Shown piece by piece: positions 1 through 47,644 of a DNA stretch of 64,000 bases; the stretch's first letter is position 1; each line of letters opens with the position of its first letter. Below the pieces are notes generated by a model, which did not search any database, was not told the origin of the DNA, and saw only the letters and a program-made list of their open reading frames with translations. Made by a program: the position numbers and the translations under genes. Origin of the DNA: Geosiphon pyriformis uo1 (Eukaryota > Fungi > Glomeromycota); the NCBI GenBank assembly GCA_016748015.1, contig JAAOMT010000009.1, positions 452,459 to 516,458 of the forward strand, given 5' to 3'.

Positions 1-3000
1 ATGCTTGGCCTCATTGAAATGCTCACTTGAGCTTCTTTTTGACTGGGTGTCCACTATTGTTAGATGTCTTGATAGTACTGAATTGGTGTCTTTGGTGTCT
101 TCCTCTTTTGTTTCTTCTCCTAATGCTTCTGTATCTTTGGCTTCGGGTTTAGGCTCAGATATGGTTTTGGATGGCACTTCAATACTGTCTGCTCCCTCTT
201 CTTCTACTGTTGATGTTGATGTACATGTTCTCAGTTCTAGTAGCTCCAGAATTCCCACTGGCAAAGTGGGTGGCTTGGAGTCTAAGTTGGCATCTTTGGA
301 GACTTCTATTGATTTAGTGTTAACACGTTTGGATGGCTTGTGCTCTAGTTTGAATGCTCCTTTGTATTCTCTTTCCAAATGAATAACCTAGTTTGGAAGT
401 TCGCTATGTGTAATGTTCAGGGTCTCAATGTTCCAGCCAAATGGGCAGACATTGTTTGTTAACATGTAAGCTTTGGAAGTATGGTTTTTTTTGTTACTGA
501 GATGAAGTTGAGGCCTTCCTCTGGACCATAGATCAAGGATGAATTTGAGGGGGTCCAGATTTTTACTTCTGGTTTGGATGTTGGTTATCTCAGTACTAGT
601 GTTGCTGTGATTATAAACAATTCTTTGGCTCACCATGTTTCTAAGGTTGAGGTGGTCTCTGGTCATGTTATCTTGGTGCATCTTCTGTTCAAGAGCAAGC
701 TTTCAGTGACTGTGCTTGGTTTGTATGCTGGTGCCTCTTCTAGCATTCGTTTTGGACAGGCATTTAAGGTTAATTCTCTTATTGCTAAGGCTGTTAATAC
801 CAGCAATTTTGTTGTTTTGAGTGAGGATTTTAATGAAAATGGGTCTGGGAAGAGCGTGAGTTTCAGGTTTTGTCTGGGTTTTGGTCTGGTCAATTCATTT
901 GCCAGTCATCAGTTGGCATTGGCTCCTACGTGGTGCAACTTGAGAGGGATCAAAAAGACTATTGATTATATTTTAGTTAGTGAAAGTCTGTTATTCACTG
1001 TTGCTATGCATTGGGTTGAGTCAGTTTCAGATTTTTTTGACACGGATCATAGTGCTGTCATGGTGTTAGTAGGTCTGGGTGGGCTTTTGGATGTTCAATT
1101 AAATAGCTTGCACAGGCAGACTAACAAAGATTGTTAGAAGTTCAAGATTAAGGATGTAGATGTGTTCAAGTGGGATAAGTTTAGGGATTGTGTTTTGGTA
1201 AGGCTTTTGTTGGTCAAAGGCATCTTTGCTGATGTCAAAGCTGGTGGTAATTTGGATACTATGTGGGCAATTTTGGAAAAGGAGATGGTTGAGTCTGCTG
1301 ATAAAATTTTTTCCAGACTGTGGTTTAGCAAATTTTATTGCTTTAGGAACAAACATTTTTCAAAGTTCTTTGGATTGGGGTTGCTCATTGTAAAGATTCT
1401 TGGTGTGGTCCACTCTGGCAACATGCTTGAAGTTGTCTGTCTCATAAAAAAATGGTCCACTTTGGATGAGGACAAAGCTTGCGCATTCTCTAATTTGGTT
1501 AGATTGGATGAGGATAGTGGGATTCTTCTTAAGCATCTGTTTTTGTTTTGCAAGGAATACAGAAAATCAAAAATGTTTGAATCGAGACTAGCTGAGGAGG
1601 CTTTTGTTAAAAAGGCTATAGAAAAATGCATGGAAAGTTTCACTTTCAATAAAAAGTGCATGATCAAAAGTATTTTGGATCGGCCTTTTTGCAAGGTGGT
1701 ACTTGATCATTTGGTGGTTGATAAAAGCTTGGTTTTGGTATCTGCGGAGGTGAAGTCTAAAATAGATAAGATTATGGCAGGATAGACAAGGAAGCAAGTG
1801 ATACCTATGGTGATGTCTGATCTTTGGGCTTGCCAATATGTGCTTTTAGATTATGTGTGGAACAATGCTTTTTCTGAGGTAATATGTGAAATCAGTTTGG
1901 ATGAGCTGCTCTCAGTGGTTAATGATCTTCCTGATGACAAGGCTGCTGATTTGTCTGGCATTCCTAATGAATTGTGGAAACATAGTGGTGATATGGTATT
2001 GAGTTGCCTTCTGGAGCTGTTGAATACATGTGTAGTTGTTGGTAAGATGCCTACTTTGTGGAGGAGGGTGTGGTGTCAATGATTCTAAAGCCTTATGACT
2101 GGAATGGGATTCTTATAAACACTCAGTTTATTGTGTTAATTGAGACTGCTAGGAAGATTCTTTCTGACAAAATTTCGTTTGCTTGCAGCAAGTTTGGTGT
2201 TCTTTGTGGTAATAATTTCTCTGTTTTAAAGGGTACGTCTACATAGTCTTCAGTTTTTGCTGTCGGCTCAGTGGTTAAGAATGCTTTGGAGAAGAATTGT
2301 GAACTTTGGCTGGTGTTATAAGATATGTGTAAAGCATATGACTCAGTTGGGTGGCATCACTTGGAAGTGAGCTTGAAACACATTAAGATGTGCAGCAAAT
2401 TTATTAGTTTCTTTAGAAACATACATAATGATAGAATTAATAGGGTTATGACAAATTTTGGTCTATTAGATGGTTATTGTGTACACGATAGTTTGGATCA
2501 AGGTGAGATCTTCTTCCCCCTTTTCTGGAAGATCTTTTATGATCCACTTTTGTGTAAGGTTAAAAGACATGAACATTTGTGTAGATACAGAATTGATACT
2601 AATTTTGTGGTAAAAACTGGCAGAATTGAGAATAGTGGTGTGATGTCATCCTTTTTTGCTGCTGGTGCTTTTGTGGATAATACGATTTGGGTGGGAGATT
2701 GCCAGACTTCCATGTAGTATGCTCTTAATATTGCCAGTGAATTTTTTTCAATCAATGATATTTCTATTAACAATGAGAAAATGGTGGCTATTCCGATCAA
2801 TCAGAGTGTCAAAATTGCTTCTTTGAGTATTAGTGGTCAGCTGATTTCTATAGTGAAAAAGGGTGAAGCTTACAGATACCTGGATATTTTTTTGTTGACT
2901 GAGGGGTTGTTCATACCTAGTTTGGCCAAGGTGCATTCAGATGTTCATTTTTTTGTCAATGTTGTACTTAAGAAAACTATTATGGACAAGCAGTATTCTT

Positions 3001-5190
3001 ATTTGATCTCTGTTGTTTTGCAGCCAATTGTTAGCTACAGAATGCAGTTTAGTTTTGTTTTTTTTGGTGTATGCTGCAAGTAAGATGTTTTGGTTAGGAA
3101 AGGCCTCAGGTCTAAGGCATGCTTGCTGCATGACTTCCCAAATGAGGCTTTGCATCATCCTTTTCTTTATGGCTTGAAGCTTTTTGACCAGGTACAATCT
3201 GAAAGTAAGGTGGCTACAGTAATATCTTTTTCAAATGCTCTGGGCATTCTTAGTCGGTTGTTTTTTTATTGCTTTTTGGATTTGCAGGTTCTTGGATAGA
3301 CACTTTTAAATCTGGTGCAGTTCTCTGTTAAGCTGCTCATTAGTCCTGTAAACAATTTTTTAGCTGGTGTGGTCAGAATTTTTTTGGATTGTGAGCTGTC
3401 TTTGGCAGGCTTTTTACCTAGTGCGTTTAGAAACCCTGGTAATTTTCTTATGTTTGAGATTTTGGGGAAATCTTTGTTTCTTAGTTGTGTTTGCTTTTTG
3501 AAGTGTTTTGGAGTGGCCTTTGGAGACAAACTCTTTGACAAGAAAGGTGCTGTGATGAATTGGAAAACTTTTTGTTGTTGGAAGAAACTTAATCCCAGAG
3601 GCTCTGTGTCTCACTGGTTCAATGTCACATCAAGGTTTTTGCTGAATAGGAGTTCAGTGCTGCCTGCTGCTGTTAAAGCTGGTAGTTTTTCAGGCTGTAG
3701 CATTTTGGATTCTGAACAGTTTGCTTTTGTGTGTAATGGTCTGCTCAAAGTTTGGTCTGGCTTTTTTGATGTTTATACTAATGGTTTGTTGAAATTTGCT
3801 GACTCCTCCAGTGTAATTAGCAGGGCCACTGCTTATTTTCCTGCTTTAGATTCAGGTGTTAGTATTGGCATTCATGGGCTTTTATCTTCAACTTTATTAG
3901 AATTGCAGGCTGTGGCTCTTGCTCTGAAATGCATTCCTCTCTCCTGTGCAGTGGTTTTGCATCTCAACAGCCAAGCTGCTATTAATGCGTATGTGTCCAA
4001 ATTAGCTTTTGCTGTTCCTGATTTTTGCAATCATTGTTGGATCGAGAGAAAATATATTGGCAATTTGATTAAGAATAGAGATCTTCCTGTGAGTTAGGTT
4101 AAGGTCAAGGGTCATTCTGGAGTTTCTGGTAATGATAGAACTGATATGCTGGCTGGTGAAGCGGCTGGCTCTTCTTTTTCTTTGCTGGCTAGGGTTCATG
4201 AGTGTTTTTTGGTGGCTGAGGGTACTACAATTTCAGGTAACGCTCATCACTTTGTCAGAGATATTTATAGATCTATTTGTTGTGCTTATTAAGAAGCTGG
4301 TCCAGGTCATGATGTGGTTCCAGTTGCTTCGTTGCAGAGTTTTGATTGGATTGCTTCCACACAGGTTTGGCATCCCAACTTGCACATGCTTGTTGGATTT
4401 ACCAGCTGTAAGTCTGTGATTCTTCGCACATACTTAATAAAGACTATACACAAAAGGCTGCTGGTGGCTGTCTGCAAAAGGTTATATGATAAAAGTTATC
4501 CTAGTATGCAGTGTTTGTTTTGTAGCAAGGTGGAATTGCCAGACCACGTCTTTACCTATTCATAAGATGTTTATACTCAGAGGGACATTTTGTCGGAGGC
4601 ATCTGTGCACTGGATTTTTCTGACTGGTGCTTGTAACCCATTTTCTTCCTCTGTCTTGAGGACTCTTGATCTTTATCATTCAGATGTCAGCTTATATTCA
4701 GTTATGTGTAAAGGGTTTGTGCTTAAGAATTGGTGTGCAAAGGCAGTTGGCATTTTTGGTGATGTTAAGAGTGCTACTAGTGTGGTGGTTGACTTTGTAA
4801 GATATTTGGTTGAGTTGTATCAATCCAAGGTGTAGTTGACAAGGTCTAAATTTAGAGTGAATATGGAGAGGGTAGGCTTAGTTGGTGATAATGATTTGGT
4901 GGTAGGTCTTTGGTATTGTGGGTTTTCTATGCTTTCAGATGGAGTGGTCAGGTTGCTTGATATTATAGAGTCTTTTGCTATAAGTTTTGGCCATCACAGG
5001 CCTTGTTCTTTTTTTTCTGGTTTGGATAGTAATCCACATGTTGTTTTAGGTGTGTAGTATTGTCTTGTCTGGCCCGAGTGGCTAGCCACATGTAGAAAGT
5101 ACATGAATTACACTTAGTTTGAACCACTTAGTTTGGTTCTATGTATTAGGTAGCAGTTGGGTTTCACTTGTTAAATTGTTTTAATAAAAA
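1..5190 (+). mobile_element. LINE (non-LTR retrotransposon) copy 1, 5' end outside window, decayed
   Basis: ORF1 tail 5-382, then ORF2 fragments: APE (LVWKFAMCNVQG, DFN, IDYI, TDH), RT (KAYDSV, QG..P, AFVD[D/N]T), RNase H (ELQAVALAL, KVKGHSG..GN..D), C-terminal CxxC..H finger; 3' UTR and A-rich tail near 5185. Confidence 0.93.
379..5057 (+). pseudogene. LINE ORF2 (APE-RT-RNase H-zinc finger), many premature stops
   Basis: ATG at 379 overlaps ORF1 TGA (380-382); ORF-track fragments 574-5057 are colinear domains separated by TAA/TAG/TGA stops. Confidence 0.9.
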
Positions 5191-6222
5191 AATAATAATT
5201 TAAAAAAAATTTTATAATTCTTTTTTATATAGAATAAAAAACATAAAAATTTGTATAATTATTAAATTAATGCTAAGTTTATTATTAAAACTAATAAAAT
5301 TAAAAATCAAACTAAATTAATATTATATTTGATAATTAAAACTTTTGTAAATAATACAATATAAATAAAAAATAATTAAGCTATTACTTAATATATTCTA
5401 AATATTATAAATAAATTTTTATAATTAATAATATTTTGCAAAACAAATAAATTTTATAAGTATTTAAGTATTTTTTTGTTAATAAATAATTTGTTTAAAC
5501 TTAATTTAATAAAAGCTTATTTAAATATCAAGTTTTTTTCTAATATAATTTTAAGAAAAACAATTTTAAATAAATTTTTTTTTATTTGGTCTTAGTTATA
5601 TTATAATTTATTAGTTTTTTTATTATTATTATTTAATAAGTGAGGTTTAAACACTATCTAGTGCTATATATCAAAGAAATGATCTTAACTAAGCATGAAT
5701 TATGTACTTTCTACATATAACCAGCCATTTAGACCAACCAGAACAACACTATACAGCTATATAAACTAAGTCTAAGTTACCTATACCTGAAAAAAATAAA
5801 CAAGATTTGCAGAACTCAAAACAAACACCAAAAGCTTCAAAGATGCCAAGCAATTTGACCACACCAGCAGAAAACCCTGATGCCAAATCAGAAACTGACA
5901 TAAGAGCCAAACTATCTAATAGAATCAATTTGGCCTTCTCTATATAGGCACAATATTTAGCACAAACCATCCAAATATTATCCCTAAAGGCAAGACCAAG
6001 AGAGCACACAAATTTGACAACCTCTGAACCAACAATCTTGGTATTGTGGAAAATAAAAACAGCTTTGTGAAACCAACTATCAAAAACAAAACTCTTATAA
6101 AGAGCCATGAATACAGAAAAATCAAAAACACAAGATGACAACAGTTAAGCATACTTGAAGAGAAGTAAGAAAAACCAAAAAAAGCCTTCCAAGAAGCCAC
6201 ATGAAAGTCCAATATTCGATGT

Positions 6223-7089
6223 TGTTACTCATAAAAAGAAAACAGATATAGAAAAATAGTAGATCAATAAGAGAGTAGTAGTTAGTACATGAGCATATTG
6301 TTCAGCAATGTGGAGCAATATCAGAAATCATGGCACATTACTTAGCAATATGGAGCAATGTCAAGAAAATATGGCATATTGCTCAGCAATGTAAGCATTA
6401 CTTGAGAAATTATAGCACATTGCTCAAGAATGTGAGCAATCTCATAGAACCCAAATTATGTATATATAGTAGTAGCATTAGAAGTAAAAAAGACAAACCT
6501 CTCAGTTTAGATTTCATCTAAGCAATCTTCCAATTCACAAATATCAATAAATAATTATTCTTTATCTTAAATCCACTTTCCACTATCAACACTTTATGTT
6601 GATAGTAATTGATGCTTAACCACACTAAAACAATAGCTCTTGATTACAGCTATTAATGGGATACTAACTTGCAATTGCTTTTGTTTATTTTCTTTTATTT
6701 TCTTTTATTTTTTTGTTTTACTAATTGATTGAAGATTAAGCACTGAGTTATTGATATCAAGGATAGCCTGGTAAAAGACCCCAAAGGAAGGGTATAGAAT
6801 TTATATATATTAATGGATAGCTTATCAGAAGGGCATCTCTGCCAGATTACCAGTCATCATGCTAAGAAAGAAATTTGATGGAATTGTGATTCCGGGAGGC
6901 TACTAAAAAGACAACAATTGAATTTCTGTTCATTATACAAAAAACTCAACAATAAAACCTTCAGATAAACCACACTGTCAGATAATAACAACATACTAAC
7001 ATTACCAACACCATCCACTAAATTAGTTACTGAGCACCAAGTTATGAGTTTGTTATTTGATTTGAGACTCCAAATAATCACCTATAACA
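6223..7089 (+). repeat. 5' LTR of element A (867 bp)
   Basis: Direct repeat of 16373-17228; TATA-like TATGTATATATAG and AATAAA inside. Confidence 0.95.
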
Positions 7090-7091
7090 TT

Positions 7092-7108
7092 TGGTGCTCT
7101 CTGTAAAG
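7092..7108 (+). promoter_or_regulatory. Primer-binding site TGGTGCTC(C)CTG.. (also 20086 and 24095); candidate elongator tRNA-Met, identity unconfirmed
   Basis: Starts TGG two nt after the LTR CA end in all three elements; complementary to a tRNA ending ...GGGAGCACCA. Confidence 0.8.
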
Positions 7109-7151
7109 TATAATCCTATAGAGAATCAGCACCAACAACAATCATCCAAAA

Positions 7152-13100: not shown

Positions 13101-13420
13101 AAAAAAAACCAGATGAAAGAGAACATCCAGTAGCATATGCCAGCTGAAGCTTGAGTCCAGCTGAAAAAAACTATGAAACACCAGCATTAGAACACTTAGC
13201 AATTTATTGAACAGTCATAAAATAAAAAGAATACTTGAGCCAAAAGTTTGAAATATATATGGATCACAAAAAATTGACTTCAATCCAGAAGCAAAAATTT
13301 GGAGACAATTGCTATACCAGATGAAAAATAGAACTTTCACTATTTAATTATACAGTACATTATAAAAAGGGAAAAAACAATGAAAATGCTGATGGATTGT
13401 CACAAATGAGACAAATCTAA
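7152..13420 (+). pseudogene. Element A polyprotein Gag-PR-Cys-rich domain-dUTPase-RT-RNase H
   Basis: CCHC knuckle CHYCDKQGHLRINC about 8910; protease LIL(N/D)SGS about 9610; dUTPase about 11196-11600; RT (PWSSP, VDYRKLN, MPFGL); RNase H ending NADGLS..RQI*. Confidence 0.9.
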
Positions 13421-13449
13421 AACATTTCAACCCAAAAATATAACAAAAG

Positions 13450-15669
13450 ATGAATATCCAAAAATACCAACAACTACAACATTATATAAATACTCAATTG
13501 TTCAAGAAGAAATTATCTCAAAAAGAACAAAGGAACATAAAACAACAATCAAAATATTTTATCAATCATCAAAATGTACTTTACTGAAAGAACAGAAGAA
13601 ATCCAGAGCAACCAACCAGAGTAATTACAGAATCAGAGAAAGAAACAATATTATTCAACATGCACTCAGATCCAACAGCAGGACACTTTTACAAAGAAAC
13701 AAACATGGAAAGAACCAGAAAAAGATATTATTGGCCATTAATGTATCCGGACATCATCCAATACATTCAAAATTGTGATGCTTGTCAGAGAAAAGATAGA
13801 ACAAAACCCAGTAAACTATTAAGACCAATTAAAGTAAGACAACTATTCAATTACATTAGAATTGACTTAGTCGGACCATTAACAATTACCAGTAAAGGCA
13901 ACAGATATATTGTAATAGCTATGGACTATCTCACAAAATGGCCAAAAGCAAAAGCCATTCAAAGAGCAGATGTAGAATCCATTGCCGAATTTGTTTATCA
14001 AGATCTGATCTATTGACACAGATGTCCAAAAGAATTATTATTAGATCAAAGAACTCACTTTGTGAATAAAACATTAACAGAATTAAGCCAAAGATTTAGA
14101 ATAAAAAAACCACTATCATTACCATACCATCCACAAACAAATGTGTTAGTTAAAAGATTCAACAGAACACTGTATGAAGTAATAGCCAAAATTAGCCAAG
14201 AAAACCAGAATGAATGGAATTTGTTTATACCATTAGTATTATTTGTTTATCGAACAATGAAACAAAATATCACACAAGCAACACCATTTGAATTGGTATA
14301 CAGTATTACTCATAGAAATATAGGGAATATATATTAGCATAGTTATTAACCAATCAGAAGTAGACATAGTAAAATGTGGAATTCCAGGATTCCTTTCAGG
14401 AATTGCAGGATTTCAGAAATTACAGGATTCCAGAATTTCAGGATTCTTCTCAAAGGAATTGCAAGATTCTTGTTGTAAAGAATTAAGGAATTAAGGAATC
14501 TCAATTATGTATATATAGCAATAAGATTAGAAGCTAAAAAGACAGACCTCTTAGTTTAGATTTCATCTAAACAACTTTCCAAACCACAAATAAATAACTG
14601 TTTGTTATCTCAAACCTGCTGCCACTATCAATACTTCATGTTAATAGTAATTGATACTTAACTATACTGGAACAATAGCTCTTAATTATGGCTATTGACA
14701 GAATACTAACTTGCAAATTGCCTTGGCTTATTTCTTTTCTTTCTTTATTTTATTTTCTTTTCTTTATTTCTTGCTTTGATTTTATTGTTGTTTACTAACT
14801 CTATTGAGGATTAATATATAGGGTACTAATGTCAGAATAAACCGAACTGGTAAAAGACCCAGAAATAAGAGTAGAACATTCAATTAAGAATAGCTTACTA
14901 GGAGGAATACTGGCCATCAAGCTGAGAAAAAAATTGATAAAACTGCGGTTTTGAGAAGCTATGGATAAAACTATTACTATTGAATTTCTGTTCATTATAC
15001 AAAGAACTCAACCAAACCCTTTGGATACAAACCTTTCAGACACAAACCTTCAGATCACTATCAACTGCAACTAGATTTGAGCACCAAGTTACAGATTTGT
15101 TATTTAATCCAACACCAGAAATAGTTACCTGTAACAACAGTAGAATAGCAACATTACCAGTTGAAATAGAGGTCAATACATATCCAACTAAACCAATAAC
15201 AGAAGATAATTTCCAAAAAACATTGTTGAAAAGAACATATGACTTAATGAAAACACTAGAAAACAGATAACAAAAAGCAGCTAATAACATCCAAAAGTTA
15301 CAAGAAAAGCAAAAAAAATGACATGATAACCAACTACTGAATAAACCAGTTAAATTCAAAATTGGAGACAAAGTACTATTATATTGCACCAAAGTGGAAA
15401 AACAATAGAGTGGAAAATTCAATCCCAAATAGAACAGACCATTTCACATAGAAGAAATTCTAGGAAATAAAGCTTATAAATTAAGATGAGACAACAAAAT
15501 TTTAGCCAAAGCAGCACATAGTGATCGACTGAAACCATATTACCAAATAGCATTATCATTCACCAATAATATTCCACAACTGGAAGTACAAAGAATACTA
15601 GTTCAACCAGATAAGATTCCATGAAATCTGGAATCAATCATAGTTATTGAACCAAACACATCAAATTGA
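13450..15669 (+). pseudogene. Element A integrase ORF, interrupted by a solo LTR
   Basis: Own ATG (MNIQKY); HHCC (H..GH..CDAC), DDE core, GPF-like C-terminus; reading resumes at 15141 after the solo LTR. Confidence 0.9.
14304..15136 (+). mobile_element. Solo LTR of the same Gypsy family inside integrase of A
   Basis: TATTACTCATAG..CCTGTAACA flanked by TSD ACAG (14300-14303/15137-15140); no PBS follows. Confidence 0.93.
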
Positions 15670-16372: not shown

Positions 16373-17228
16373 TGTTACTTATAAAAAAAAACAGATATAG
16401 AAAAATAGTAGACCAATAAAAGAGTAGTAGTTAGCATGTGAGCACATTGCTTAGCAATGTAAAGCAATATCAGAAATCATGACACATTACTCAGCAATGT
16501 CAAGAAAATATGGCACATTGCTTAACAACATGAGCATTGCTTGAGAAATAATAGCACATTGCTCGAAAATGTGAGCAATCTTATAGAACCCAAATTATGT
16601 ATATATAGTGGTAGCATTAAAAGTAAAAAAGACAGACCTCTTAGTTTAGATTTCATCTAAGCAACCTTTCAATTCACAAATATCAATAAATAATTATTCT
16701 TTATCTCAAATCCACTCTCCAGTATCAACACTTCATGTTGATAATAATTAATACTTAACCATACTAGAACAATAGCTCTTGATCACGACTATTGATGAAA
16801 TACTAACTTGCAATTGCTTTTCTTTATTTTCTTTTATTTTCTTCTATTTCTTTGTTTTACTAATTGATTGAGAATTAAGCACTGAGTTATTGATATTAAG
16901 GATAGCTTGGTAAAAGACTCCAAAAGAAAGATATAGGATTTATATATATTAATAGATAGCTTACCAGAAGAGCATCTCTGCCAAATTACCAGCCACCACA
17001 CTGAGAAAGAAATTTGATGGAATTGCAATTTCGGGAGGCTACTGGAAAGACAACAATTGAATTTCTGTTCATTATACAAAGAACTCAACAACAAAACCTT
17101 CAGATAAATCACACTGTCAAATAATAACAATGTACCAATATTACCAATATTATCCACCAGATTAGTTACTGAGCATCAAGTTACAGGTTTGTTATTTAAT
17201 TTGAGACTCCAAATAATCACCTGTAACA
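16373..17228 (+). repeat. 3' LTR of element A, preceded by PPT AAAAAAGAGGAGATAA
   Basis: Direct repeat of 6223-7089. Confidence 0.95.
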
Positions 17229-19190
17229 ATGTCTAGCAGAATTATCAACCTTATAAAAGAACATATGATCTAATATCTCCATATTATCACAATACAAACA
17301 CAACACACTAGGATAATGTTTATTATAAAAGTGCTTCCAAATAACAACAGACAATTGATGATGCAAGGCCTTCATAAAATAAATGCATGTACTAACTGAG
17401 AGTCTGCTGGTAAAACCAACAGTCATGTGCAAATCAGGATGCCACACCAGTGACAAGTGGAGCCAATTGATCTCAGAAAGCAAACTATCTGTCAAAAACT
17501 TGGAACCAAAACCAACCTTCCAGTGTGTATGACAAATGAAATAATAAACATCATGTACAAAATATCTAAAATTGCCAGAAACAACACCACTATCAGCCAC
17601 TATAAAGCATTCATCCAAGCAAGGAAGAAGATGCCAACCAGAAAGAAAAGCAGCACCAACAATCATGTTAGCATGTTTATTCTCTGAGATGTCCAAGTGA
17701 CCCTTTACTTTGTGCCAACTAACCCTTAAATTCTTACTATAAATGACATTAACTATATGTTAACACTCAATCCAACACTAATTGCAAAAGTCAAAATACA
17801 CCAGACCCAATTCCGACTTACAAACATCCAAAGCAGATTGACTATCCAAAAACAAGCAAACAGAGCTAGACAAAGGAACACACTCTAGGGACAATGCAAT
17901 AGCCTGCAATTCTGTTATAGTGGAAGATATTAAACCTGATACACCAATGCTCAAACCCAAATTAATGTCTTTGAAAAAAGCAGCAGTACTAGCTTTACAG
18001 CCAATTGTGCTCAGATTTTTCAGAGACTTATCTGTATATACAAATAAACTACCAAAACCAATCTGAGAAAAATGGTTGCAAACAGACACAAAATCACCAG
18101 AGTTAAGAATGTTCAAAAGAACAATTTCACTTAAAATCAAAGAATAAGCAGAAAAAGAAGTTACACTATTGAAAAATTTTGCAGAAATTTTGAACCACTC
18201 AGGAACAGAGCCATAGAGGTCCAGTCTTTTCTATTGCCTAAAAGTACACCAATCAAAAACAGCAACATGACTATTACAAAGTTGACTCACAAAAACTATA
18301 TCATATCAATGGAGAGAAGAGAAAAACTTGAGAAATCTTGACTTGCCCAAAACAGCAAACATGGGAATCCCACTGTAAAACTAAAAAAACTGGCTAAAAA
18401 GCCACTCAGGGACAAATTGCAATCAAAAAAAACATGAATCATGCCTGTCAGAAAGTTATTAGAAACACTGACACAAATACGAATAGGAGAACTCAATAGA
18501 TGAACAGAGTGCCAACACAAAACTTGCAAGTTATAAGACCTGTGAGAAAACAAGCGACCCAAAACTCCATCAAAGTTTACAAAACTAACAAAAAAAGCAA
18601 TCTTACTTTCAGATTAAACTTATAAGAAAGATTTCAAACCATAAAAAGAAGGGTGATGAATTGTATTGCTAGAAAAATCAAGTAATAAACCAGATTTAAG
18701 CTTCAAACCCTTACAAATCAGAGCATTCTACTTGTTGCATACATCAACAAGAACAAAGCTGAACTGTATCCTATAGCTAACTATAAGATGGAGAACTGCC
18801 AACACTAAATACAAAAACTGTTTATTTAAGACAGTCTTTCTCAAAACCATATTAGTAAAAAAACAAATGTCTAAATGTGTCTTAGCCAAACTAGGCTTCG
18901 AAAGGTCCTTAGTTAAAAGAAAAATGCCCAAATACCAATAAAATTCACTTTTTTTGGCAATAAAGATTGGCAAGCCACTAATAGAAAGAGAAGGATTACT
19001 AATCTTACTATTGATAGGAATGACCACCATCTTGTTATTATTAATTGAAATGTCATTGATCTGAAAAAATTTACCAGCAACATTGAGAATATATTGAGTA
19101 GCACTCTAACTGCTACCAACCCAAATTGTATCATTGACAAATATGCCAGCAGCAAAAAAGAAAGAAAGTCCAGCCTAAGATTCAGTGCAA

Positions 19191-20083
19191 TATTATTCAT
19201 AGAATATAGAAAATATAGTATTATTAGTCAGTAGATATTAGCCAATCAGAGGTAGACGTAATAAATGTGGAATTTCAGAATTCCTCTCAGAGAAATTGCA
19301 GGATTCCAGGAATTTCAGAATTTCCCGACAAGGAATTACAGGATTCCAGAATTGCAGAATTCCTCTTATCAAGAATCGCAGAATTCCAAAAATCTCAGGA
19401 TTCTTGTCGCAAAGAATTGAGGAATTGAAGAATCTCAATTATGTATATATAGCAGTAGGATTAGAATCTGAAAAGACAGATCTCTTAGTTTAGATTTAAT
19501 CTAAGAAACATTCCAGTTCCCAATCATCAAATAAATAATTATTCTATATCTCAACCCACTCTTTACTATCAACACTTTATGTTGATAGTAATTGATACTT
19601 AATCATGCTGGAACAATAGCTCTTGATCACGACTATTGACGAGATACTAACATACCAAATTGCCTTGGCTTATTTTCTCTATTTTCTTTATTTTTTATTT
19701 TCTTTATTTTATTTTATTTTATTTTTTGATTTTGTTGTTGTATACTAATTGATTAAAAGATTAAGCACTGAGTTATTGACATCAAGAATAGCCTGGTAAA
19801 AGACCCAGAATTAAGAGTAGGATTTTATATATTATCAGATAGCTTACCAGAAGGGCATGACTGCCAGACTAAATTCAGCCACCATGCTGAGAAAGAAATT
19901 GGGAAAACTTTTGAAAAAATACATCTATTATTGATACTATTGAATCTCTGTCCATTATACAAAAGACTTCATCAAAAATCTTTAGATATAACCCTTGCAG
20001 AATCTCATCCATGGAAGTAGCTTTTGAACACCAAGTTATGAGTTTGTTATTTAATTCAACAGCAAAAATACTTACCTGTAACA
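19191..20083 (+). repeat. 5' LTR of element B
   Basis: Direct repeat of 36765-37657. Confidence 0.95.
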
Positions 20084-23000
20084 TTTGGTGCTCCCTGTGA
20101 GATATAATCTTACAGAGAACCAGCACCAACAAACACCATCCAAAAGTGGCAGAATCAGAAAATATAGGAGCAAACCATTTAGAATTTGCAAAATCCTTAT
20201 TTCAACACTATTGTCAATACTTGGGATTAAATCACAATCATATATCTGCCGAATCAGCCTTCAATTTCTACGTCAATGAAAAGATTTCTTTTTTATTAGG
20301 AACACTAGTGAATACTGAATCAGCAAGAGAAACTTTCTATAGGGAGTTAATTCAAAACACCAACCTACCAACAAATCATAATTTCACATCCATCATCACT
20401 GAGATCAACAAAGAAATTGAACACCACACTCAACAAAGATATCCAATTACATATGCTAGTAAAGGCAAGAGAAAACTACAAACACCAGCAGTAACACCCA
20501 GAAAAATACAGCCATCTACTTAGAAGAAAAACAGAATTGAATCCCCAAGCAACCTATCCTACCACTATACACTTGGAAGTGTCATCAACATATCATCAAC
20601 AGACATGTTTTCATCAATTATAACATCAATATTTGGACAATTCCTATTCCAAAGTAGACAGAGGAAAACAGAATTATTAGGACCATATGGCGAATACTTT
20701 GAGAGATTTAATTTATAATCATCAATCTCATCAAAACTTTGATCACCACCACCTTCACCAGATTTCAGAATCTCTGATCTGTGGAAAGAAGCAGAATTAG
20801 AAAAAGAGGAAGAAGAATCAGAGGATCAAGAATTCACTTACCAGCACCCGATCACTGAAAACTCGGAAGTTGAAACCCCGAATTTTCAAACTCAGCAAAA
20901 TCTAAATCTAGAAAACCCGGAAATTGAAACTCCGAATCATCAAAGGCAGAACAATCCAAACCCTGAATTAATTAATCAGCAAAACTTACCTCCAGTAATT
21001 GTCATCAATCAACTGCCAATTAATCCTATAGCCAAACCCATACAACAGCCACTTCAACTACCACCCCAACAACCAGTACAACAACAACTGCTTCAACAAC
21101 CACCAAACTTAGATCCAATGGCCTATGCACCAATCGCAAAACTTGACAACTTTACTGGTAAAGAGGATGATGCTCAAGTATGGCTGAATAATATAGAAAA
21201 GGCCATCACAGCCAACAGATGGAATGATGCCCAAGCAATGCAAACCATTCCCTACTTTCTCAAGAATACCGCTGATTCATGATATCAGAGCTTGGTTAAT
21301 AAACCACAAGATTTCAATGCCTTCAAAGTGGAATTCCTAAGATATTTCAGCAACAATAACAGCATTAATCGCCTAGTCAATACATTCACCACCATGAAAC
21401 AAAAAGAAACTGAAGCAGTCACCACTTATTTAGGATGCTTCCATCAAAATCTGCACCAAGTTCAAGCAATTAACGCCAATTATTTTACAGCCCCACAGAT
21501 ACTCAACCAGTTTATCTATGGCCTGCACAGTAACATCTTGTAACATGTATGTCCATTGCATCCAGGCACCTTTCAAGATGCAGTCACACATGCCAGAGAT
21601 TTTGAATCCGCTGAGTCAGAGGCTAACCACACCCAAGCTATTAATCTAGTAATGAATGGATCATCTGAATTGGATTCCAAATTGGAGAAGTTCAGTAAAT
21701 CAATTAATAAGAGATTGGAAGGATACTTAGCTGATAATCACGCCATTTATTAGCCTCCACAACGATGCAATAATCAAGGAAACTCTAATTGTGCCCAAAA
21801 TCAACCACGTCCATCTTCATCAACCAATCAACAGTGGCAATAGGAAACGCGTATCTGCCACTATTGTAGTAAACAAGGACATATCCAAATTGACTGTTGC
21901 TAGCGTTTAAATAACCAACGATCAGGAAATCAATATCGAAACCCCAATTGCTGGTTCCAAACTCTGAATCAGTACTCAAATCAAAACCAACCCACTTACC
22001 TACCAGTGATACAGTCATCAGTCTATCAATCTCTGGTGTATCAAGCTCCAATCTATCAACCGCAGCTACAAATAATTTATCAACAACCACAGCCACAAAT
22101 AATCTATCAATTCCAACAAATCCAAACACCACCCCAAAGCTTACCACCCAACGGAACCCAAAGACCAAAAATAATTCAACAGAGCTGGAGATCGGCGATA
22201 ATAGTCTATCAACTGATCCCCAGTTCTTTACAGCAACCATCTGGATTACGCCAGCGGAGTTCAGGTGCCGGTCAACCCCAAAACCCAAATTCCCAGAACT
22301 ATTTAAGTCTTCTGGTTATCTTAGAAGATGCCTCAACCAATAACCCAGCATTTGCCCAAAGACAACCAATTACCAGTAATATCCCACCTGCTACCATCAC
22401 TGAAGACGAGTCTTTGGCTGCTATATTCCCATTTGAATTCGAGGAAACGACTGCAACACCATTATTTAGTGGAGCTGCTCTTGAAGCCAAACCAATCACC
22501 ATGATGTATACTGATGCCAAAGTTGAGGGACAATCCATCAAATTGATCCTTGATAGCAGTTCAGCAGGCAGCATTATCACACGACAACTCATAGATCAAT
22601 TAAATTGCCGAGTTGATTGAACTGCCAGTGCCAGAATCATCACAGCCGATGGAGCGACCAAAACTCCAATTGGCGAAATCGACGACTTCCCTTTTGAAGT
22701 CAATGGCATCATGACTCTCATTAAAGTTCTCGTAATGGAAGCCAACCAATACCAAGCTCTTGTTGGTAATAACTGGCTATCCAAAGTCAACACGACGTTA
22801 GACTGGAACACCCAGGAACTCCAGCTAACATATCAGGGCTGACATATATGTGTACCAGCCATGTGTGGCCATTTCAAGACTCCTTTAAGAGAGAAACTAT
22901 TGATCGAACTGGAGAAAGAGAAAGAAAAACTTATCTGGGAAGCTTACCAAGTCTTCTGGGCCAACACCAATCACAATGAACTATCACTGATACTTTCATA

Positions 23001-23331
23001 AAATGACAACTTTAAGAGAAAACAAAAGGAGGAACTGACCTGGGAAACAGATGATTTGACCTGAACTGATAACGAACAAGAAGAACCATCGAGTTGGGAG
23101 TGGAAAGAAGAAAAAGGCAAAGGGAAAAAAAGGGAGGAAGAAAACACTCAAGCCAACAACACTTATATCCCATACACCTATGGTCAACAACAATCATTGA
23201 CCTATTGCTGACCCAAACTGATATGCATTGATTGTGACAAGAAATTGTCGTCAATGGGTGCATGCTGTGGTGACGATGAAGAATATCAGACGGCAACCAA
23301 GTTCTATTACCACGCATGTCATGTCAAATGT

Positions 23332-24092
23332 TGTTACTCATAGAAATATAGAAAATATATTAGCATAATTATTAGCCAATTAGAAGTAAATGTAGTAAAT
23401 GTGGAATTCCAGGATTCCTCTCAGGAATTACAGGATTCCAGGAATTTCAGGATTCCCTGACAAGGAATTACAGGATTTCAGAATTTCAGGATTCCTCTCA
23501 AAGGAATTGCAGGATTCCAGAATTAATACCACAGAATCCTTAGCCTAGAAACAAAAATCATCAAATAAATAATTATTCCATATCTCAATCCACTCTCTAC
23601 TATCAACACTTCATGTTGATAATAAGTAATACTTAACCACACTAGAACAATAGCTCTTGATCACAGCTATTGACGGGATACTAATCTGCAAATCGCCTTG
23701 GCTTATTTCTTTTCTTTCTTTATTTTTCTCTTATTTTTCTTTATTTTATTTTGATTTATTATTGTGCACTAACCCATTGATTGAAAAGCGCTGATTACTG
23801 ATATCAAGAATTGCCTGGTAAAAGACCTCTGCGAGAGGGTAGAACATGTACAGAAGATACGGATTACTTACCAGAGAATTGCCGGCCACCAAGCCGAGAA
23901 AAAAATTGACAGACTTGCGAATCTGAGAAGCTATGAATAAAACAACTATTGAATCTCTGTCCATTATACAAAGAACTCCATCAAAATCTTCAGATACAAT
24001 GCTTGCAAAACCTCATCAACAGAAGTAGCTTTATGAGCACCAAGTTATGGATTTGTTATTTACTTCAACAGCAGAAATAATCTCCTGTAACA
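23332..24092 (+). repeat. 5' LTR of element C (about 90-bp deletion removes TATA box)
   Basis: Aligns with 30782-31632 except the block containing TATGTATATATAG. Confidence 0.92.
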
Positions 24093-24151
24093 TTTGGTGC
24101 TCCCTGTGAGGTATAATTCTACAGAGAACCAGCACCAACCCAAATCTAAAT

Positions 24152-27100
24152 GTGGCAGAATTAGAAAATATAGGAGCAAACCATTTAGAATTCGTGAAAT
24201 CCTTGTTTCAACAATACAGCCAACAATTAGGATTAAACAGTAATTATTACCCAGCCGAATCAGCCTTCAACTTTTATGTCAACGACAGAATTACTGAATG
24301 CTTAGGAGGAACAGTTAACATTGAAGCAGCAAGAGAAAACTTTTACACAGAATTATTCCAACATACCAACTTACCAAGAAACTATAGTTTTGCACCAATA
24401 ATCAAAGAAATCAACCAGACTATTGAAAGATACACTCAATAACAATTTCCCATTACCTATGCAGACAAAGGTAAAGGAAGAATACAAACACCAGCAGCAA
24501 CACCAAAAGGAATACAGTTATCTAGTTGGAAGAAACACAGAGTAGAATCACCAACCGCTCTATCATATCACTACACACCTGGAAGCACCATCAACATCTC
24601 ATCAGTAGACGCATCCACCTCAAACGCAATATTAACAGTTGGAAGATTCCAGTTCCAAAGCAAACAATGGAAAGAAAATTTACTAGGGCCATACGGAGTG
24701 TATTTTGAAGGATTTAAATCACAATTACCAACTCCATCAGGAATTCGATCACTGCCGCTTCAACCGGACTTTGGAATCGCTACCCCATAAGAACTATTTA
24801 AAGAAAAAGAGGAAGAAGCATTAGAAGATCAAAAATTTACTTACCAAAACTCCAATTGGCAAAATTGATGACTTCTCTTTCGAAGTCAATGGTATTGTGA
24901 CTCCCATTAAAGTTCTAGTGATGGAAGCCACTCAATACCAAGCTCTCGTTGGTAATGACTGGCTATTCAAAGTTAACATAACGTTAGACTGGAACACCCA
25001 AGAACTCCAGCTAACATATCAGGGCCAACACATACGTGTACTAGCCACATGTGACCATTTCAAGACTCCTCCAAGAGAGAAACTATTGATTGAACTAGAG
25101 AAAGAGAAAGAGAAACCTACCTGGGAAGCATACCAAGTCTCGTGGGCCAACACTGACCACAATGAGCTGCCGCCAATACTCGCCTGAGACGACAATAACA
25201 ACGGAAAAGAGGAGCAAAGAAAAGAACCTACCTGTAAAACCACTATCGACGTTGGGACCAACAACAAAGACCACTACGAACTACCACCAGTATTATCATG
25301 AGATGACAACCCCAAAGGAAAGCAAAAAGAGAAACTTACCTGGGAAACCAATGATTTGACTTGGACTGATAATGAACAAAAAGAAGCCTCAAGTCAGGAA
25401 TGGAACGAAGATAAGGAAAAAGGAAAAGAAAAAGAAGAAAAAACGCCACCAATGATCAACAGTTATAATTCCTACACCCACCACACTCCACAACAATCCA
25501 ATTATCAACGGCCAAGGCTGGTATGCGTTGATTGCAGCAAAAAACTGTCATTAATGGGTGCATGCTGTGGTGACAATGAGAAATACCACACCGCAACAAA
25601 GTTTTACTGTTGTCCATGCTTACTCGAATGCTTTGGATGACAAAAGAGGCAAAAAAAATGGGATAACCAACTTTATTTCGCTTGTGGGGAGACCCTACTA
25701 GATAAAAGGATGTGAAACAACATCCCAGGATGTGGAGGAACATGTGACGTATCATGTCAATACACAATTTTAATAAGCGACTAGGTAAGGAAAGGAACTC
25801 CAATAGAAGCAGCCTAAAGAAGAGCCATGCAGTGACTGGACAGTTGTTCACATGACAACGACAAATTGTGGAGAATGGCAATTGCCAAAATAGAAGGAGT
25901 GACATCTGAAGAGATCAGAGAAATCAAAAACAACCCACCAGAACCCACTGAGCTTGACTGAAATGCAGAGCCAGCCATAAATTCTCTGGAACTCGAAGAG
26001 TTCCATGAACACTACCAAAACTTGACACCCACTAGAGAAGAGCAAGAACAATGGCTAGCACAGTTGAATACAAGACTGTGTCGCCATTGTTTAATTCACA
26101 GTGACTTTGAATATTGTGACAATTGTGACCTCCTTTACAATCCACTATCACGCATGATCTACTCGATTCCTGAAGAAGAAGAACCAATCAGCAGCTGTGC
26201 ATCGGAATTAGAATGCTGATCAATCGTAATCCAGACTCTGACGATAACAACAAAAACATCGGTTTTAGTTTCGTTTAAAATGGCAATGACAACAAAAACG
26301 ATTCCAACTCAGATTCAAACTCCAATTTAAACCATGAACAATACATTACACTACCAGATCTCTCCAAGGAACAAGAGTTGAAATGGTATAGTGACAATGG
26401 AGAGAGTATTATGCCAGAACATGTGCATAATACGGATGCAGGGTTTAATCTGAGATATTCAGGAAAAAATGCCATCAAATTGGAACTGCATTCATGCACC
26501 TGTATTGATCTGAAAATAGCACTAGAAATTCCGGCAACAACAATGGTTCAATTAACATCTAAGAGTAGTTTAGTGAAAAAAGGGATCAATATAAGAGGAG
26601 GAATAATTGACACAGGATATGTAGGAAATATCATCACTATGCTACAAAATAACTCAGAAAAGGCCTACATAATAGAGCCCCAATAAAAAGATAGCACAGG
26701 CAATATTCCTGTCTCTGGTTAGAATAGCTTAATTAGTATTAGTGGAAAACAGGGAAGAGTTAAGGATTATGGCTAAAAGAATACAAAGATTTGGATCAAC
26801 AAATAGAATAGATATACCAGTTAATATAACAGAGGAAGAAATTGTTGGCCAAAGAGAAATTATCTCAACCAGTCAAGTTATTTCCATTCCACCATATAGC
26901 CAGTATATGCTAACAATAGAAAGAAAAAAAAAGGAGCAAGGACAAATTTTTGAAGCTGAAGCAAACCTTTATGAATCAGGAGAGATTGGATTGATCAATC
27001 TCCACATACCAGCCAAAAGCTATAACAGCATAAAAATTCCCATCTACAACAACACTAGTAATGTCATTAACATACCAAAAAGAACCACCATCAGATATGT

Positions 27101-28637: not shown

Positions 28638-28700
28638 GAACATTTTAACCCAAAAATATAACAAAACCAGAACAATACCAACAGAAAAATACAACAAAAG

Positions 28701-30083: not shown

Positions 30084-30138
30084 TCAATCAAAAAGAATAT
30101 ATAAAGACATGGTAGACGTGACAGGAAATATCAGAAAA

Positions 30139-30768
30139 ATGGAAATTACAGACAATATTCACATACTAGCACACCAACTCTTTCAATTAATCCAACACCA
30201 GGAAATGGAGATTACAATCAACCAACAAACCATTCGATATCAAGATACTAGAAAGATATTACAACTTAGAATACCAAAAAAAAATGAAGATACAGTGAAC
30301 AAAATCATGGTGAAAGTAAAATTAGCAATAAAAGAATCAACAAAAAAGTCACTATATTAAGAGTTGACTAAAGAAACTTGGAATTGGTGGATACAACAAT
30401 TTCCAAGAAACTATTGTTATTTTTACTTGGGACAACACATAAATATCCAGAATTTATATACAGATAAAACAAAGTAATTATTCGACAAAAGAATACTACA
30501 ACAATTAGAACATTTTGTGGGAAAGAACAACTTATCCACACAAGCCCGAGCCATATACCAAATACACACAGCATTTCAAAATAAACCAGAAATATTGCTC
30601 AACAAAGCAATGGATATAGTCACCAATAATCAATTGGAAAAAATCACCAACACTCAATTTGAAGAAGTACAGACCCAAATAACACAAGTAATTCTTGAAA
30701 AAAAAATCCAGAAAATACTTCAAGAGGGGGAATTACATAAGTTGGATTTCAACAGAGTTCAATATTAA
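30139..30768 (+). pseudogene. Element C third ORF (orphan, about 210 aa)
   Basis: ORF-track pieces 30109-30360 and 30517-30768 are in one frame, broken only by CAA>TAA-type stops. Confidence 0.8.
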
Positions 30769-30781
30769 AAGAAGGGAATAA

Positions 30782-31632
30782 TGTTACTCATAGAAATATA
30801 GGAAATATATTAGCATAATTATTAGCCAATCAGAAGTAAGCGTAGTAAATGTGGAATTCCAGAATTCTTCTCAGGAATTACAGGATTCCAGAAATTTCAG
30901 AATTCTCTAACAAGGAATTACAGGATTCCAGAATTTCAGGATTCCTCTCAAAAAAATCACAGAATTCCAAGAATTCCAGGATTCCTGTCATAAAAAACCG
31001 AGGAATTGAGAAATCTCAATTATGTATATATAGCAGTAGTGTTAAAAACAGAAAAGACAGAATCAATACCACAGAATCCTTAGCCTAGAAACAAAAATCA
31101 TCAAATAAATAATTATTTCATATCTCAATCTACTCTTTACTATCAACACTTCATGTTGATAATAAGTGATACTTAACTACACTAGAACAATAGCTCTTAA
31201 TCACGGCTATTGATGGAATACTAATCTGCAAATTGCCTTGGCTTATTTCTTTTCTTTCTTTATTTTTCTCTTATTTTTCTTTATTTTATTTTGATTTATT
31301 ATTGTGCACTAACCCATTGATTGAAAAGTGCTGATTACTGACATCAAGGATTGCCTGATAAAAGACTCCTGCGAGAGGGTAAGACATGTACAGAAGATAC
31401 AGATTACTTACCAGAGGATTGCTGGCCACCAAGCCAAGAAAAGAATTGACAAACTTGCAAGTCTGGGAAGCTACAGATAAAACAACTATTGAATCTCTGT
31501 TTATTATACAAAAGACTCCATCAAAATCTTCAGATACAATGCTTGCAGAACCTCATCAATAGAAATAGCTTCACAAGCACCAAGTTATGGGTTTGTTATT
31601 TATTTCAACAGCAGAAATAATCCCCTGTAACA
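30782..31632 (+). repeat. 3' LTR of element C
   Basis: TGTTACTCATAG..CCTGTAACA. Confidence 0.93.
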
Positions 31633-36068: not shown

Positions 36069-36121
36069 TTGACAAAAGAATATATAAGAACATGGTCGAC
36101 GTGACAGAAGAGAACAGAAAA

Positions 36122-36751: not shown

Positions 36752-36764
36752 AAGGAGAGAATAA

Positions 36765-37657
36765 TATTACTTATAGAATATAAGAAATATAGTATTATTA
36801 GTCAGTAGATATCAGCCAATCAAAGGTAGACGTAGTAAATGTGGAATTCCAGAATTTCTCTCAGAGGAATTGCAAGATTCCAGAAATTTCAGAATTCTCT
36901 AACAAGGAATTCCAGAATTCCAGAATTCCAGAATTCCTCTCATTAGGAATCGCAGGATTCCAGGAATCTTAGGATTCTTGTTGCAAAGAATTAAGGAATT
37001 GAAGAATCTCAATTATGTATATATAGCAGTAGAATTAGAACCTGAAAAGACAAACCTCTCAGTTTAGATTTAATCTAAGAAACATTCTAGTTCCCAATCA
37101 TCAAATAAATAATTATTTCATATCTCAACTCACTTTCTACTATCAACACTCTATGTTGATAGTAATTGATACTTAACCACGCTGGAACAATAGCTCTTGA
37201 TTATGGTTATTGATGAGATACTAACATACCAAATTGCCTTGGCTTATTTTCTCTATTTTCTTTATTTTTTATTTTCTTTATTTTATTTTCTTTATTTTTT
37301 TGATTTTGTTGTTGTATACTAATTGATTAAAAAATTAAGCACTGAGTTATTGACATCAAGGATAGCCTGGTAAAAGACCCAGAAATAAGGGTAGGATTTT
37401 ATATATTATCAGATAGCTTACTAGAAGGGCATGACTGCCAGACTAAATCTGGTCATCACGCTAAAAAAAAAATTGGGAAAACTCTTGGAAAGATACATCT
37501 ATTATCAACACTATTAAATCTCTGTCTATTATACAAAGAACTCTATCAAAAACCTTCAGATATAACCCTTGCAGAATCTTATCTATGGAAGTAGCTTTTG
37601 AGCACCAAGTTATGGGTTTGTTATTTAATTCAACAGCAGAAATACTCACCTGTAACA
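36765..37657 (+). repeat. 3' LTR of element B
   Basis: Direct repeat of 19191-20083. Confidence 0.95.
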
Positions 37658-46605: not shown

Positions 46606-47644
46606 TGTTACCTGAGTAGAAAAACCAATTCAAAGTTATGGAGAAAACATGACCAAAAATGTAATAACATAAAATAATACAGAATAATGCAAAAAAATAC
46701 AGAATAACACATAATAACTTAGAATAACATAATACAAAACTCGATACTATGTTATAGCACAAAATAACTAATTAAAACATAAGATAATTAGTAATAATAT
46801 AGAAGAACAAAATGATAATAAAAATAACAAAGCAATAGCTAGCAAAAACAAAACAATAAAAAAATAATTCTATAGAACCAAAAAAAATGTATAAAAATGA
46901 GTAACTATAAAAGTTAGAAAAACATTCAAACAAAAATCAATTTTCCTCTTCTTTATAATTATTACATCTTATAAAAATAAAAGACTTATTTAAAAACATA
47001 AAATCATTAATACATAGTCATTAATCATTTTATATTTAAATTAAACTAATTCTTGTTTCATACTTTTGTTCTAGGACTAATGCTTTTAACATAAATACCT
47101 CGAACTTTAATAACCTAAACTAATCACTCTTGATCATGACAATTAACAATACTAATTTATCTTTTTCTATTTTCTTTTTTTTTATTTTTTTTTATTTTTT
47201 TTTATTTTTTTTATTTTTATTTTTATTTTTTATTTTATTCTCTCTTGTAAAGTAACAACATAGAAAAATCAACTGTTTAAGAATAGACTCTATAATAGCC
47301 TGGTAAAAAAAAAGGCTCTTTTTAAGTTTGGATATTAATATTATTTTGATAGCTTATTAAAAGAGCAAAAAAATACTGTTAGATTTTAATGATTATGTTC
47401 ATTAATTTGAAGAAAATAGCTCACATTCACATATAAAATGTTATAACACTGCAAAATATTTCTCTGTGCTTTATAATCAAAAAACTTTATGGGTAAATTT
47501 ATAACAATTAAACAAATTTTTAGAGACTAATAATACTAACATACCAAACAAGTCTACTGAAAAAAACCCATTAAAAGCTTCCTAAAAACCCAAATTTTGA
47601 GTACCAAACATTACTACCATAAAACCCCAAGTTTATTTATAACA
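46606..47644 (+). mobile_element. Divergent solo LTR of the same Gypsy lineage inside the hAT relic
   Basis: TGTTAC..TATAACA, TSD ACAT/ATAT, retains CTCTTGATCA, T-rich tract, TAGCCTGGTAAAA, GATAGCTTA and GAG(C/T)ACCAA motifs in order. Confidence 0.8.

What the first reader, a model, noticed from the sequence alone, without database searches (positions are those of the whole stretch)
7032..7100. tRNA-3'-end mimic in U5 that folds back on the PBS (conserved hairpin)
Seen: every recognisable LTR carries GAGCACCAA-GTTAC(G/A)GG about 45-60 nt before its end (7032, 15079, 17171, 20026, 24035, 31576, 37600, and 47599 in the divergent LTR). It is the reverse complement of CCTGTAAC-AT-TTGGTGCTC (LTR end plus PBS): 9 bp plus 8 bp with a 2-nt bulge. 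The loop differs between subfamilies but still pairs (A: TTATTTG/CAAATAA). GAGCACCA is identical to the predicted primer tRNA 3' end. Inference: a switch that hides the PBS (translation vs reverse transcription), or a Tf1-like self-priming variant in an element that still has a TGG PBS.
Basis: partly seen in the sequence, partly recalled or inferred. Interest (0 to 1): 0.8.

Follow-up and report, generated by a model that had tools for sequence, protein, structure and literature searches.

The report
Folded primer site in fungal retrotransposon
In these decayed fungal jumping genes the site where a host tRNA likely starts DNA copying is flanked on both sides by short complementary stretches predicted to fold over it, with a further box predicted to grip another part of the same tRNA; this likely controls primer loading as in retroviruses, and it is probably not tRNA-free self-priming.

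Summary
The inverted repeat is real. Seven LTRs of a dUTPase-bearing Ty3/gypsy lineage (proteins match Geosiphon pyriformis) carry the motif 58 nt before the LTR end. An eighth, old solo LTR of a sister family carries it 46 nt before, with another loop. Only three LTRs are followed by a PBS; two of these fold strongly. The PBS has 18 nt: a pattern predicted from it found tRNA-Met(CAT) genes in 17 of 17 hits, so the primer is likely elongator tRNA-Met (host gene not seen). The TATA-like and AATAAA motifs lie over 500 nt upstream, so the motif is likely in U5; Tf1-like self-priming is unlikely. New here: a second PBS-complementary arm just downstream of the PBS, predicted to compete with the U5 arm at near-equal energy, and a conserved U5 box complementary to tRNA-Met nt 38-47. 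No compensatory change was found, and no sister family with another PBS could be read. Best reading: a retrovirus-like structured primer-loading domain; function inferred, untested. The scan's notes hold no look-alike, only tRNA-free self-priming hairpins in other genomes.

The parts
6223..7089 (+). 5' LTR of element A (3' LTR 16373-17228; 4-bp TSD ATGT)
6463..6551 (+). TATA-like motif (6463) and AATAAA (6546): inferred U3/R/U5 landmarks. TATA-like motif in 6 of 7 LTRs (deleted in C5), AATAAA 529-554 nt before the LTR end in 7 of 7
   Evidence: RNA start inferred, not mapped
6942..6966 (+). U5 tRNA-complement boxes: 6-nt box (6942-6947) predicted to pair with the T-arm of tRNA-Met, then a 10-nt box (6957-6966) complementary to nt 38-47 of tRNA-Met genes L117/L118. 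Other copies at 15046, 17096, 19978, 23986, 31526, 37552
7032..7049 (+). U5 arm: 9 nt complementary to the spacer and PBS nt 1-8, followed by 6-9 nt complementary to the LTR end
7092..7109 (+). PBS of element A, 18 nt, deaminated; likely for elongator tRNA-Met
7115..7135 (+).
14304..15136 (+). Solo LTR inside element A integrase (TSD ACAG); motif at 15079, no PBS
16373..17228 (+). 3' LTR of element A; motif at 17171, no PBS
19191..20129 (+). 5' LTR of element B (to 20083; motif 20026), PBS 20086-20103, downstream arm 20109-20129
23332..24138 (+). 5' LTR of element C nested in B (to 24092; motif 24035), best-kept PBS 24095-24112, downstream arm 24118-24138
30782..31632 (+). 3' LTR of element C; motif at 31575
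36765..37657 (+). 3' LTR of element B; motif at 37600
46606..47644 (+). Old solo LTR of a divergent sister family; PBS-complementary arm at 47599, 46 nt from the end

Best explanation
These are decayed Ty3/gypsy retrotransposons whose 18-nt primer site, likely for elongator tRNA-Met, is flanked by two complementary arms and preceded by a box complementary to tRNA-Met nt 38-47; together these likely form a structured primer-loading domain that keeps the site closed until Gag would anneal the tRNA. Shown: the arms, the box, their retention across three subfamilies (64-78% LTR identity), and the U5 arm in a more distant family. Predicted: two folds of near-equal energy, one with the U5 arm and one with the downstream arm on PBS nt 1-8; the tRNA duplex is more stable than either hairpin. 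Inferred by analogy with HIV-1, HTLV-1, RSV and Ty1: the upstream box helps select and hold the tRNA, a nucleocapsid-type chaperone opens the stem, and the closed state prevents premature or wrong priming.
For: PBS-derived 25-nt pattern: 17 of 17 hits are tRNA-Met(CAT) genes, pairing with 17 of 18 nt of the C PBS. U5-PBS hairpin z -5.9 and -5.3 in 2 of 3 copies. Arm kept in a divergent family whose surrounding sequence aligns poorly (chance about 0.001; family majority from 121 contigs) with another spacing and junction. Downstream hairpin z -4.7, -6.1, -3.2 in 3 of 3; constrained energies -27.5/-25.5 (A) and -30.5/-31.0 (C) kcal/mol. The 10-nt box is present in 7 of 7 LTRs (4 exact, 3 with C>T only); 1 of 300 shuffled tRNAs reached 10 nt and 8 other tRNAs reached 6-8. 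tRNA:PBS duplex -36.6 against hairpin -22.5 kcal/mol in C. Precedents: HTLV-1 PBS in a 10-bp hairpin (PMC13366004); HIV-1 U5 pairing with anticodon stem/variable loop and PAS (PMC3185550).
Against: No compensatory change: 0 of 16 inner pairs, and both partners of the main stem (att end, PBS) are fixed for other reasons. The motif is not uniquely conserved: 80 of 556 U5 windows of 17 columns are as clean. Copy B does not form the U5 stem as it stands. The predicted balance of folds shifts with the stretch folded (C: 0.91-0.98, 0.56). The host tRNA gene was not seen; the box matches only 4 of 7 tRNA-Met genes tested (two at 10 nt, two at 9 nt) and not the viral tRNA-Met genes. No sister family with another PBS was available. 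All copies are dead and no RNA data were found.
Confidence: 0.55

Rival explanations
1. The U5 arm acts on the DNA product: the minus-strand strong-stop DNA carries a PBS-like copy about 58 nt from the tRNA end, which would fold back on the tRNA 3' end and help release the primer from the RNA template or aid strand transfer.
For: The mirror hairpin is a direct consequence of the sequence; folded as DNA it gives -13.4 and -12.0 kcal/mol. The arm covers exactly the tRNA-DNA junction.
Against: It is weaker than the RNA hairpin (-22.5) and does not explain the downstream arm, which is not copied into strong-stop DNA.
Confidence: 0.12
2. The arms are neutral relics of old inverted duplications or tRNA-end captures made during reverse transcription, carried along in a generally conserved U5.
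For: No covariation; much of U5 is equally conserved among the three main subfamilies.
Against: The arm survives in a family where loop, spacing and flanks have turned over; fixed spacing in 7 of 7; three separate tRNA-related features occur together.
Confidence: 0.12
3. The folds shield the PBS from host 3' tRNA fragments, which silence LTR elements in mammals.
For: 3'-tRFs target the PBS and block reverse transcription (PMC7472051, passages); the downstream arm covers most of the PBS.
Against: The U5 arm alone leaves PBS nt 9-18, where an 18-nt fragment's seed would pair, to weaker pairing; no small-RNA data for this host were seen.
Confidence: 0.08
4. The two folds are a fate switch between translation and packaging or reverse transcription.
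For: Two mutually exclusive predicted folds of near-equal energy exist.
Against: Neither helix contains a start codon; both folds keep the PBS mostly paired.
Confidence: 0.08
5. Tf1-like self-priming: the RNA starts at, or is cut after, the U5 arm, which then serves as primer.
For: The geometry resembles Tf1, with an LTR stretch complementary to the PBS and an adjoining stem (Tf1 as described in PMC7175516 and PMC4600332, passages). The RNA start is not mapped.
Against: [quoted passage not shown] The PBS keeps a full tRNA match and a second tRNA box. No chromodomain was found behind integrase.
Confidence: 0.05

Closest known systems
HTLV-1 PBS hairpin (PMC13366004; abstract and introduction read)
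   Same: An 18-nt tRNA PBS embedded in a stable hairpin that must be opened by chaperones.
   Different: Here there are two competing arms, one in U5 and one downstream, both sense copies of the primer 3' end; the host is a fungal LTR retrotransposon; no structure has been probed.
HIV-1/HIV-2/RSV extended primer interactions: U5 with anticodon stem and variable loop, PAS with T-arm (PMC3185550; passages read)
   Same: [quoted passage not shown]
   Different: The box here is 10 nt, 91-133 nt before the LTR end, for tRNA-Met; it is predicted only, and the host tRNA was not seen.
Tf1/Tf2/Tj1 and the Tf1/sushi self-priming group (PMC7175516, PMC4600332, PMC6317226; passages read)
   Same: An LTR stretch complementary to the PBS with an adjoining stem.
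   Different: Those elements lack a tRNA-type PBS and use the RNA 5' end; here the PBS matches tRNA-Met over 17 of 18 nt and the arm likely lies deep in U5.
Ty1 boxes 0/1 and Ty3 bipartite PBS (PMC3592414, PMC5371799; passages read)
   Same: Extra primer contacts outside the PBS in fungal LTR retrotransposons.
   Different: They use initiator tRNA-Met with a short or split PBS; this lineage has a contiguous 18-nt PBS for a G1-starting tRNA-Met and contacts upstream in U5.
Conserved Hairpin Site of fungal GalEa copia elements (PMC5445492; passages read)
   Same: A conserved hairpin at the LTR/leader junction in fungal elements.
   Different: CHS replaces the PBS; here a full tRNA PBS is kept.

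Membership tests
Ty3/gypsy (Metaviridae) LTR retrotransposon | gag, protease, RT, RNase H, integrase in that order between LTRs | tested here: met
   Pfam hits in order PR, dUTPase, RT, RH, IN; Gag capsid
Ty3/gypsy (Metaviridae) LTR retrotransposon | TG...CA LTRs, TSD, PBS after the 5' LTR, purine tract before the 3' LTR | tested here: met
   4-bp TSDs
tRNA-primed elements with an 18-nt PBS | PBS complementary to the 3' 18 nt of a tRNA | tested here: met
   17 of 18 nt against tRNA-Met(CAT) genes from viral contigs
tRNA-primed elements with an 18-nt PBS | the matching tRNA is encoded by the host | not testable with these tools
   no genome held; no tRNA in the window
Tf1/sushi self-priming group | PBS complementary to a stretch of its own LTR | tested here: met
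   8 PBS nt plus spacer; Tf1 uses 11 nt
Tf1/sushi self-priming group | PBS not complementary to a tRNA | tested here: not met
Tf1/sushi self-priming group | complementary stretch at the RNA 5' end | tested here: inconclusive
   promoter and poly(A) motifs place it about 500 nt downstream of the inferred start; no RNA run listed
Tf1/sushi self-priming group | chromovirus: chromodomain behind integrase | tested here: not met
   no chromodomain in 9 frames of three decayed copies; only SH3_Tf2-1; decay could hide a weak one
Retrovirus-type structured PBS domain (works like) | stem over the PBS shown by probing or covariation | tested here: inconclusive
   predicted folds significant; no covariation
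Retrovirus-type structured PBS domain (works like) | extra U5 contacts with the primer needed for initiation | not testable with these tools
   complementary box found; function untested

The most novel reading that the evidence does not exclude
A tRNA-primed fungal retrotransposon carries a bistable primer gate built from pieces of its own primer: two sense copies of the tRNA 3' end take turns covering the PBS, and an upstream antisense box catches tRNA-Met by its anticodon and T arms and tips the gate open. The U5 arm is also a ready-made self-primer, so the lineage would show how Tf1-type self-priming can arise from a tRNA-primed ancestor by a shift of the RNA start.
Probability: 0.2. Interest if true: 0.72.

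Novelty: new variant of a known kind. Interest (0 to 1): 0.45.

Why it matters
Structured primer sites and extra primer contacts are worked out for a few retroviruses and for yeast Ty1 and Ty3. A compact, sequence-legible example in a high-copy lineage of an early-diverging fungus would extend this to another branch and give a simple in vitro test system. It also warns that a PBS complementary to its own LTR is not enough to call an element self-priming, which is how such elements are often predicted.

Tried and rejected
No genome is held for the window, so no genome-wide LTR set and no host tRNA. ARAGORN found no tRNA in the window; Rfam gave 0 matches on 23300-24400. Sequencing runs: no RNA holder listed; the one DNA holder may be the window's source and is not independent. 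Covariation across families: RT searches gave 9 viral-contig and 80 metagenome loci (the latter scan covered 3 of 64 parts). I looked at the upstream regions of 36 of them and picked 23 PBS candidates by eye; an LTR pair supports only about 6, the rest rest on recalled tRNA ends. None of the 23 has an 8-nt exact upstream complement (best 7) and 1 of 23 has z below -3 (L049); downstream, the best z is -2.4. All 23 fall outside the 13-row clade holding the window RT (quick tree, support 98, careful search unfinished), and the five clade loci show no recognisable LTR/PBS, so this shows only that the feature is not general in gypsy elements. The exact tRNA pattern found nothing in prokaryote genomes, and a looser one nothing in viral contigs. 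A hairpin pattern in viral contigs gave one chance hit without LTR context. My first view that 47599 was not in an LTR (low-complexity hits only) was overturned. An ATG just upstream of the motif in family B opens a short frame across the hairpin, but A and C lack it, so I took it as a deamination product. The primary Tf1 structure paper is not held. No supplements were read.

Full report
Setting. The window holds nested, decayed Ty3/gypsy retrotransposons with protease, dUTPase, RT, RNase H and integrase and a Gag capsid domain. All 120 listed homologues (of 225) of the segment after the PBS are named Geosiphon pyriformis proteins, 72-94% identical, so the host is likely that fungus or a close relative. 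There are seven alignable LTRs: three 5' LTRs with a PBS, three 3' LTRs and one solo LTR, with 4-bp target duplications. Subfamilies are 64-78% identical; pairs from one element are 89-92% identical and differ almost only by transitions. One DNA run lays 14,512 contigs on LTR C, with C>T and G>A as the main changes, so the lineage is high-copy and deaminated.

Observation. The motif is present 58 nt before the end in 7 of 7 LTRs. The hairpin needs the PBS, so only three copies can form it; z-scores are -5.9, -1.2 and -5.3. The site at 47599 lies in an old solo LTR, 46606-47644, that shares three non-repetitive U5 boxes with the others and has a 4-bp duplication. Among 121 contigs laid on its end, 95% of the depth restores the arm at 47602. 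In that family the arm lies 46 nt from the end, the loop is different, and the junction looks like a single mismatch instead of a 2-nt bulge; its own PBS was seen only as a few loose-end letters. A 9-mer like this in the last 80 nt has a chance of about 0.001. This is the best sign of selection. Against it, the inner helices show no change on both sides in 16 pairs, and 80 of 556 U5 windows are as well conserved as the motif.

Primer. I predicted a tRNA 3' half from the PBS and T-stem pairing. The 25-nt pattern hit 17 viral-contig loci, and ARAGORN called tRNA-Met(CAT) at 17 of 17. These genes start with G and pair with 17 of 18 nt of the C PBS. That a G-starting tRNA-Met with this T-loop is the elongator is recalled knowledge. 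The host gene itself was not seen. The match runs 9-10 nt beyond the 8 PBS nt that the U5 arm covers, in all three subfamilies once deamination is allowed for.

Self-priming. Tf1 primes with the first 11 bases of its RNA (PMC7175516, passages). Here a TATA-like motif lies 606-638 nt and AATAAA 529-554 nt before the LTR end (6 of 7 and 7 of 7 LTRs), with similar spacing in the divergent LTR. This is the usual U3-R-U5 order (PMC3601003, passages and one section, which also notes that AATAAA lies close to the 3' end in sushi LTRs). The arm is therefore likely in the last 60 nt of a long U5. A cut there would leave strong-stop DNA without R (inference). No chromodomain was found. The RNA start is not mapped, so a small probability remains.

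Two further parts. [quoted passage not shown] It is exact in 4 LTRs and differs by C>T only in 3. Of 7 genes tested from the 14 loci, two match at 10 nt, two at 9 and three at only 6; eight other tRNAs gave 6-8; 1 of 300 shuffled tRNAs reached 10. A 6-nt T-arm complement precedes it in the right order in most copies. HIV-1 has proposed U5 contacts with the same two parts of its primer, and that review calls them disputed (PMC3185550, passages). Second, all three leaders carry an arm 23-43 nt from the PBS start that pairs with nearly the whole PBS (z -4.7, -6.1, -3.2; duplex z -3.6, -4.1, -1.0). It competes with the U5 arm for PBS nt 1-8. Constrained folds differ by 2.0 kcal/mol in A and 0.5 in C; in B, whose U5 arm is damaged, the downstream fold wins. 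The predicted balance depends on the stretch folded. Forty-six matches to the peptide that these codons would give, among 120 homologues, suggest that the arm is family-wide (selected by pattern).

Mechanism. The likeliest reading (0.55) is a structured primer-loading domain. The PBS would be closed in either fold; the tRNA duplex (-36.6 kcal/mol, against -22.5 for the U5 hairpin in C) would win once a chaperone opens the stem; and the upstream box would help select and hold tRNA-Met. HTLV-1 has its PBS in a 10-bp hairpin that needs chaperones (PMC13366004, abstract and introduction); Ty1 and Ty3 use extra primer contacts (PMC3592414, PMC5371799, passages). The sequences are shown, the folds predicted, the function inferred. 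Rivals are a role of the mirror hairpin on strong-stop DNA, a neutral relic, a shield against tRNA fragments (PMC7472051, passages), a translation switch (no start codon lies in either helix), and self-priming.

Reach and novelty. Among 23 PBS candidates picked by eye in distant gypsy elements, none has an 8-nt exact upstream complement and 1 has a comparable z-score; none is in the window's RT clade, so no covariation test across primers was possible. Paper searches (listings only unless named above) showed no description of this arrangement in a fungal gypsy element, but the library lacks most subscription papers, including the primary Tf1 and RSV work. The scan's notes gave no look-alike sequence, seven notes on tRNA-free hairpins or palindromes in other genomes, and two notes on a stand-alone integrase in this genome, which I saw in three copies here. 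Verdict: real, wider than reported, a new variant of a known kind; self-priming unlikely; interest 0.45.

Noticed in passing
window 13418-13452, 28635-28695, 34594-34690: RNase H ends at the same stop (RQI*) in all three elements and integrase begins behind it at a new ATG, so integrase looks like a separate gene; matches earlier notes on this genome.
   Followed up: partly
window 20104-21120: An in-frame extension of about 330 codons precedes the Gag capsid start (MAYAPIAKL). No ATG lies between the PBS and its conserved start; a GTG in a good context (about 20146) occurs in all three copies. Non-AUG start or a spliced leader is possible.
   Followed up: no
window 6660-6730 and equivalents: U5 has a long T-rich tract between branch-point-like CTAAC/CTAAT motifs, which could mark an intron in the leader.
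   Followed up: no
window 15015-15055: The solo LTR has three tandem, partly decayed copies of the tRNA-complement box; A has a second degenerate copy.
   Followed up: no
window 6293-6449 and equivalents: U3 carries an internal repeat of about 80 nt, built from short palindromic units, that differs between subfamily A and B/C.
   Followed up: no
window ~36000-36760, ~30000-30780: About 800 nt lie between the integrase end and the purine tract, with decayed reading frames and no Pfam match above noise.
   Followed up: no
window 1-5500, 17229-19187, 37659-43186, 61521-63968: A second repeat family in several orientations; one frame has a weak RT hit (2322-2714, E 0.006), possibly a non-LTR element.
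   Followed up: no
window 54998-55300 (-) and 56356-58054 (+): Host genes: a TIP49/RuvB-like exon and an intron-containing UDP-sugar pyrophosphorylase.
   Followed up: no
L033:94-111: A distant gypsy element has a PBS that also looks like elongator tRNA-Met but no U5 mimic in the 79 nt held upstream.
   Followed up: partly
L109-L122: Eukaryote-type tRNA-Met genes on contigs of prokaryote assemblies, likely contamination.
   Followed up: no
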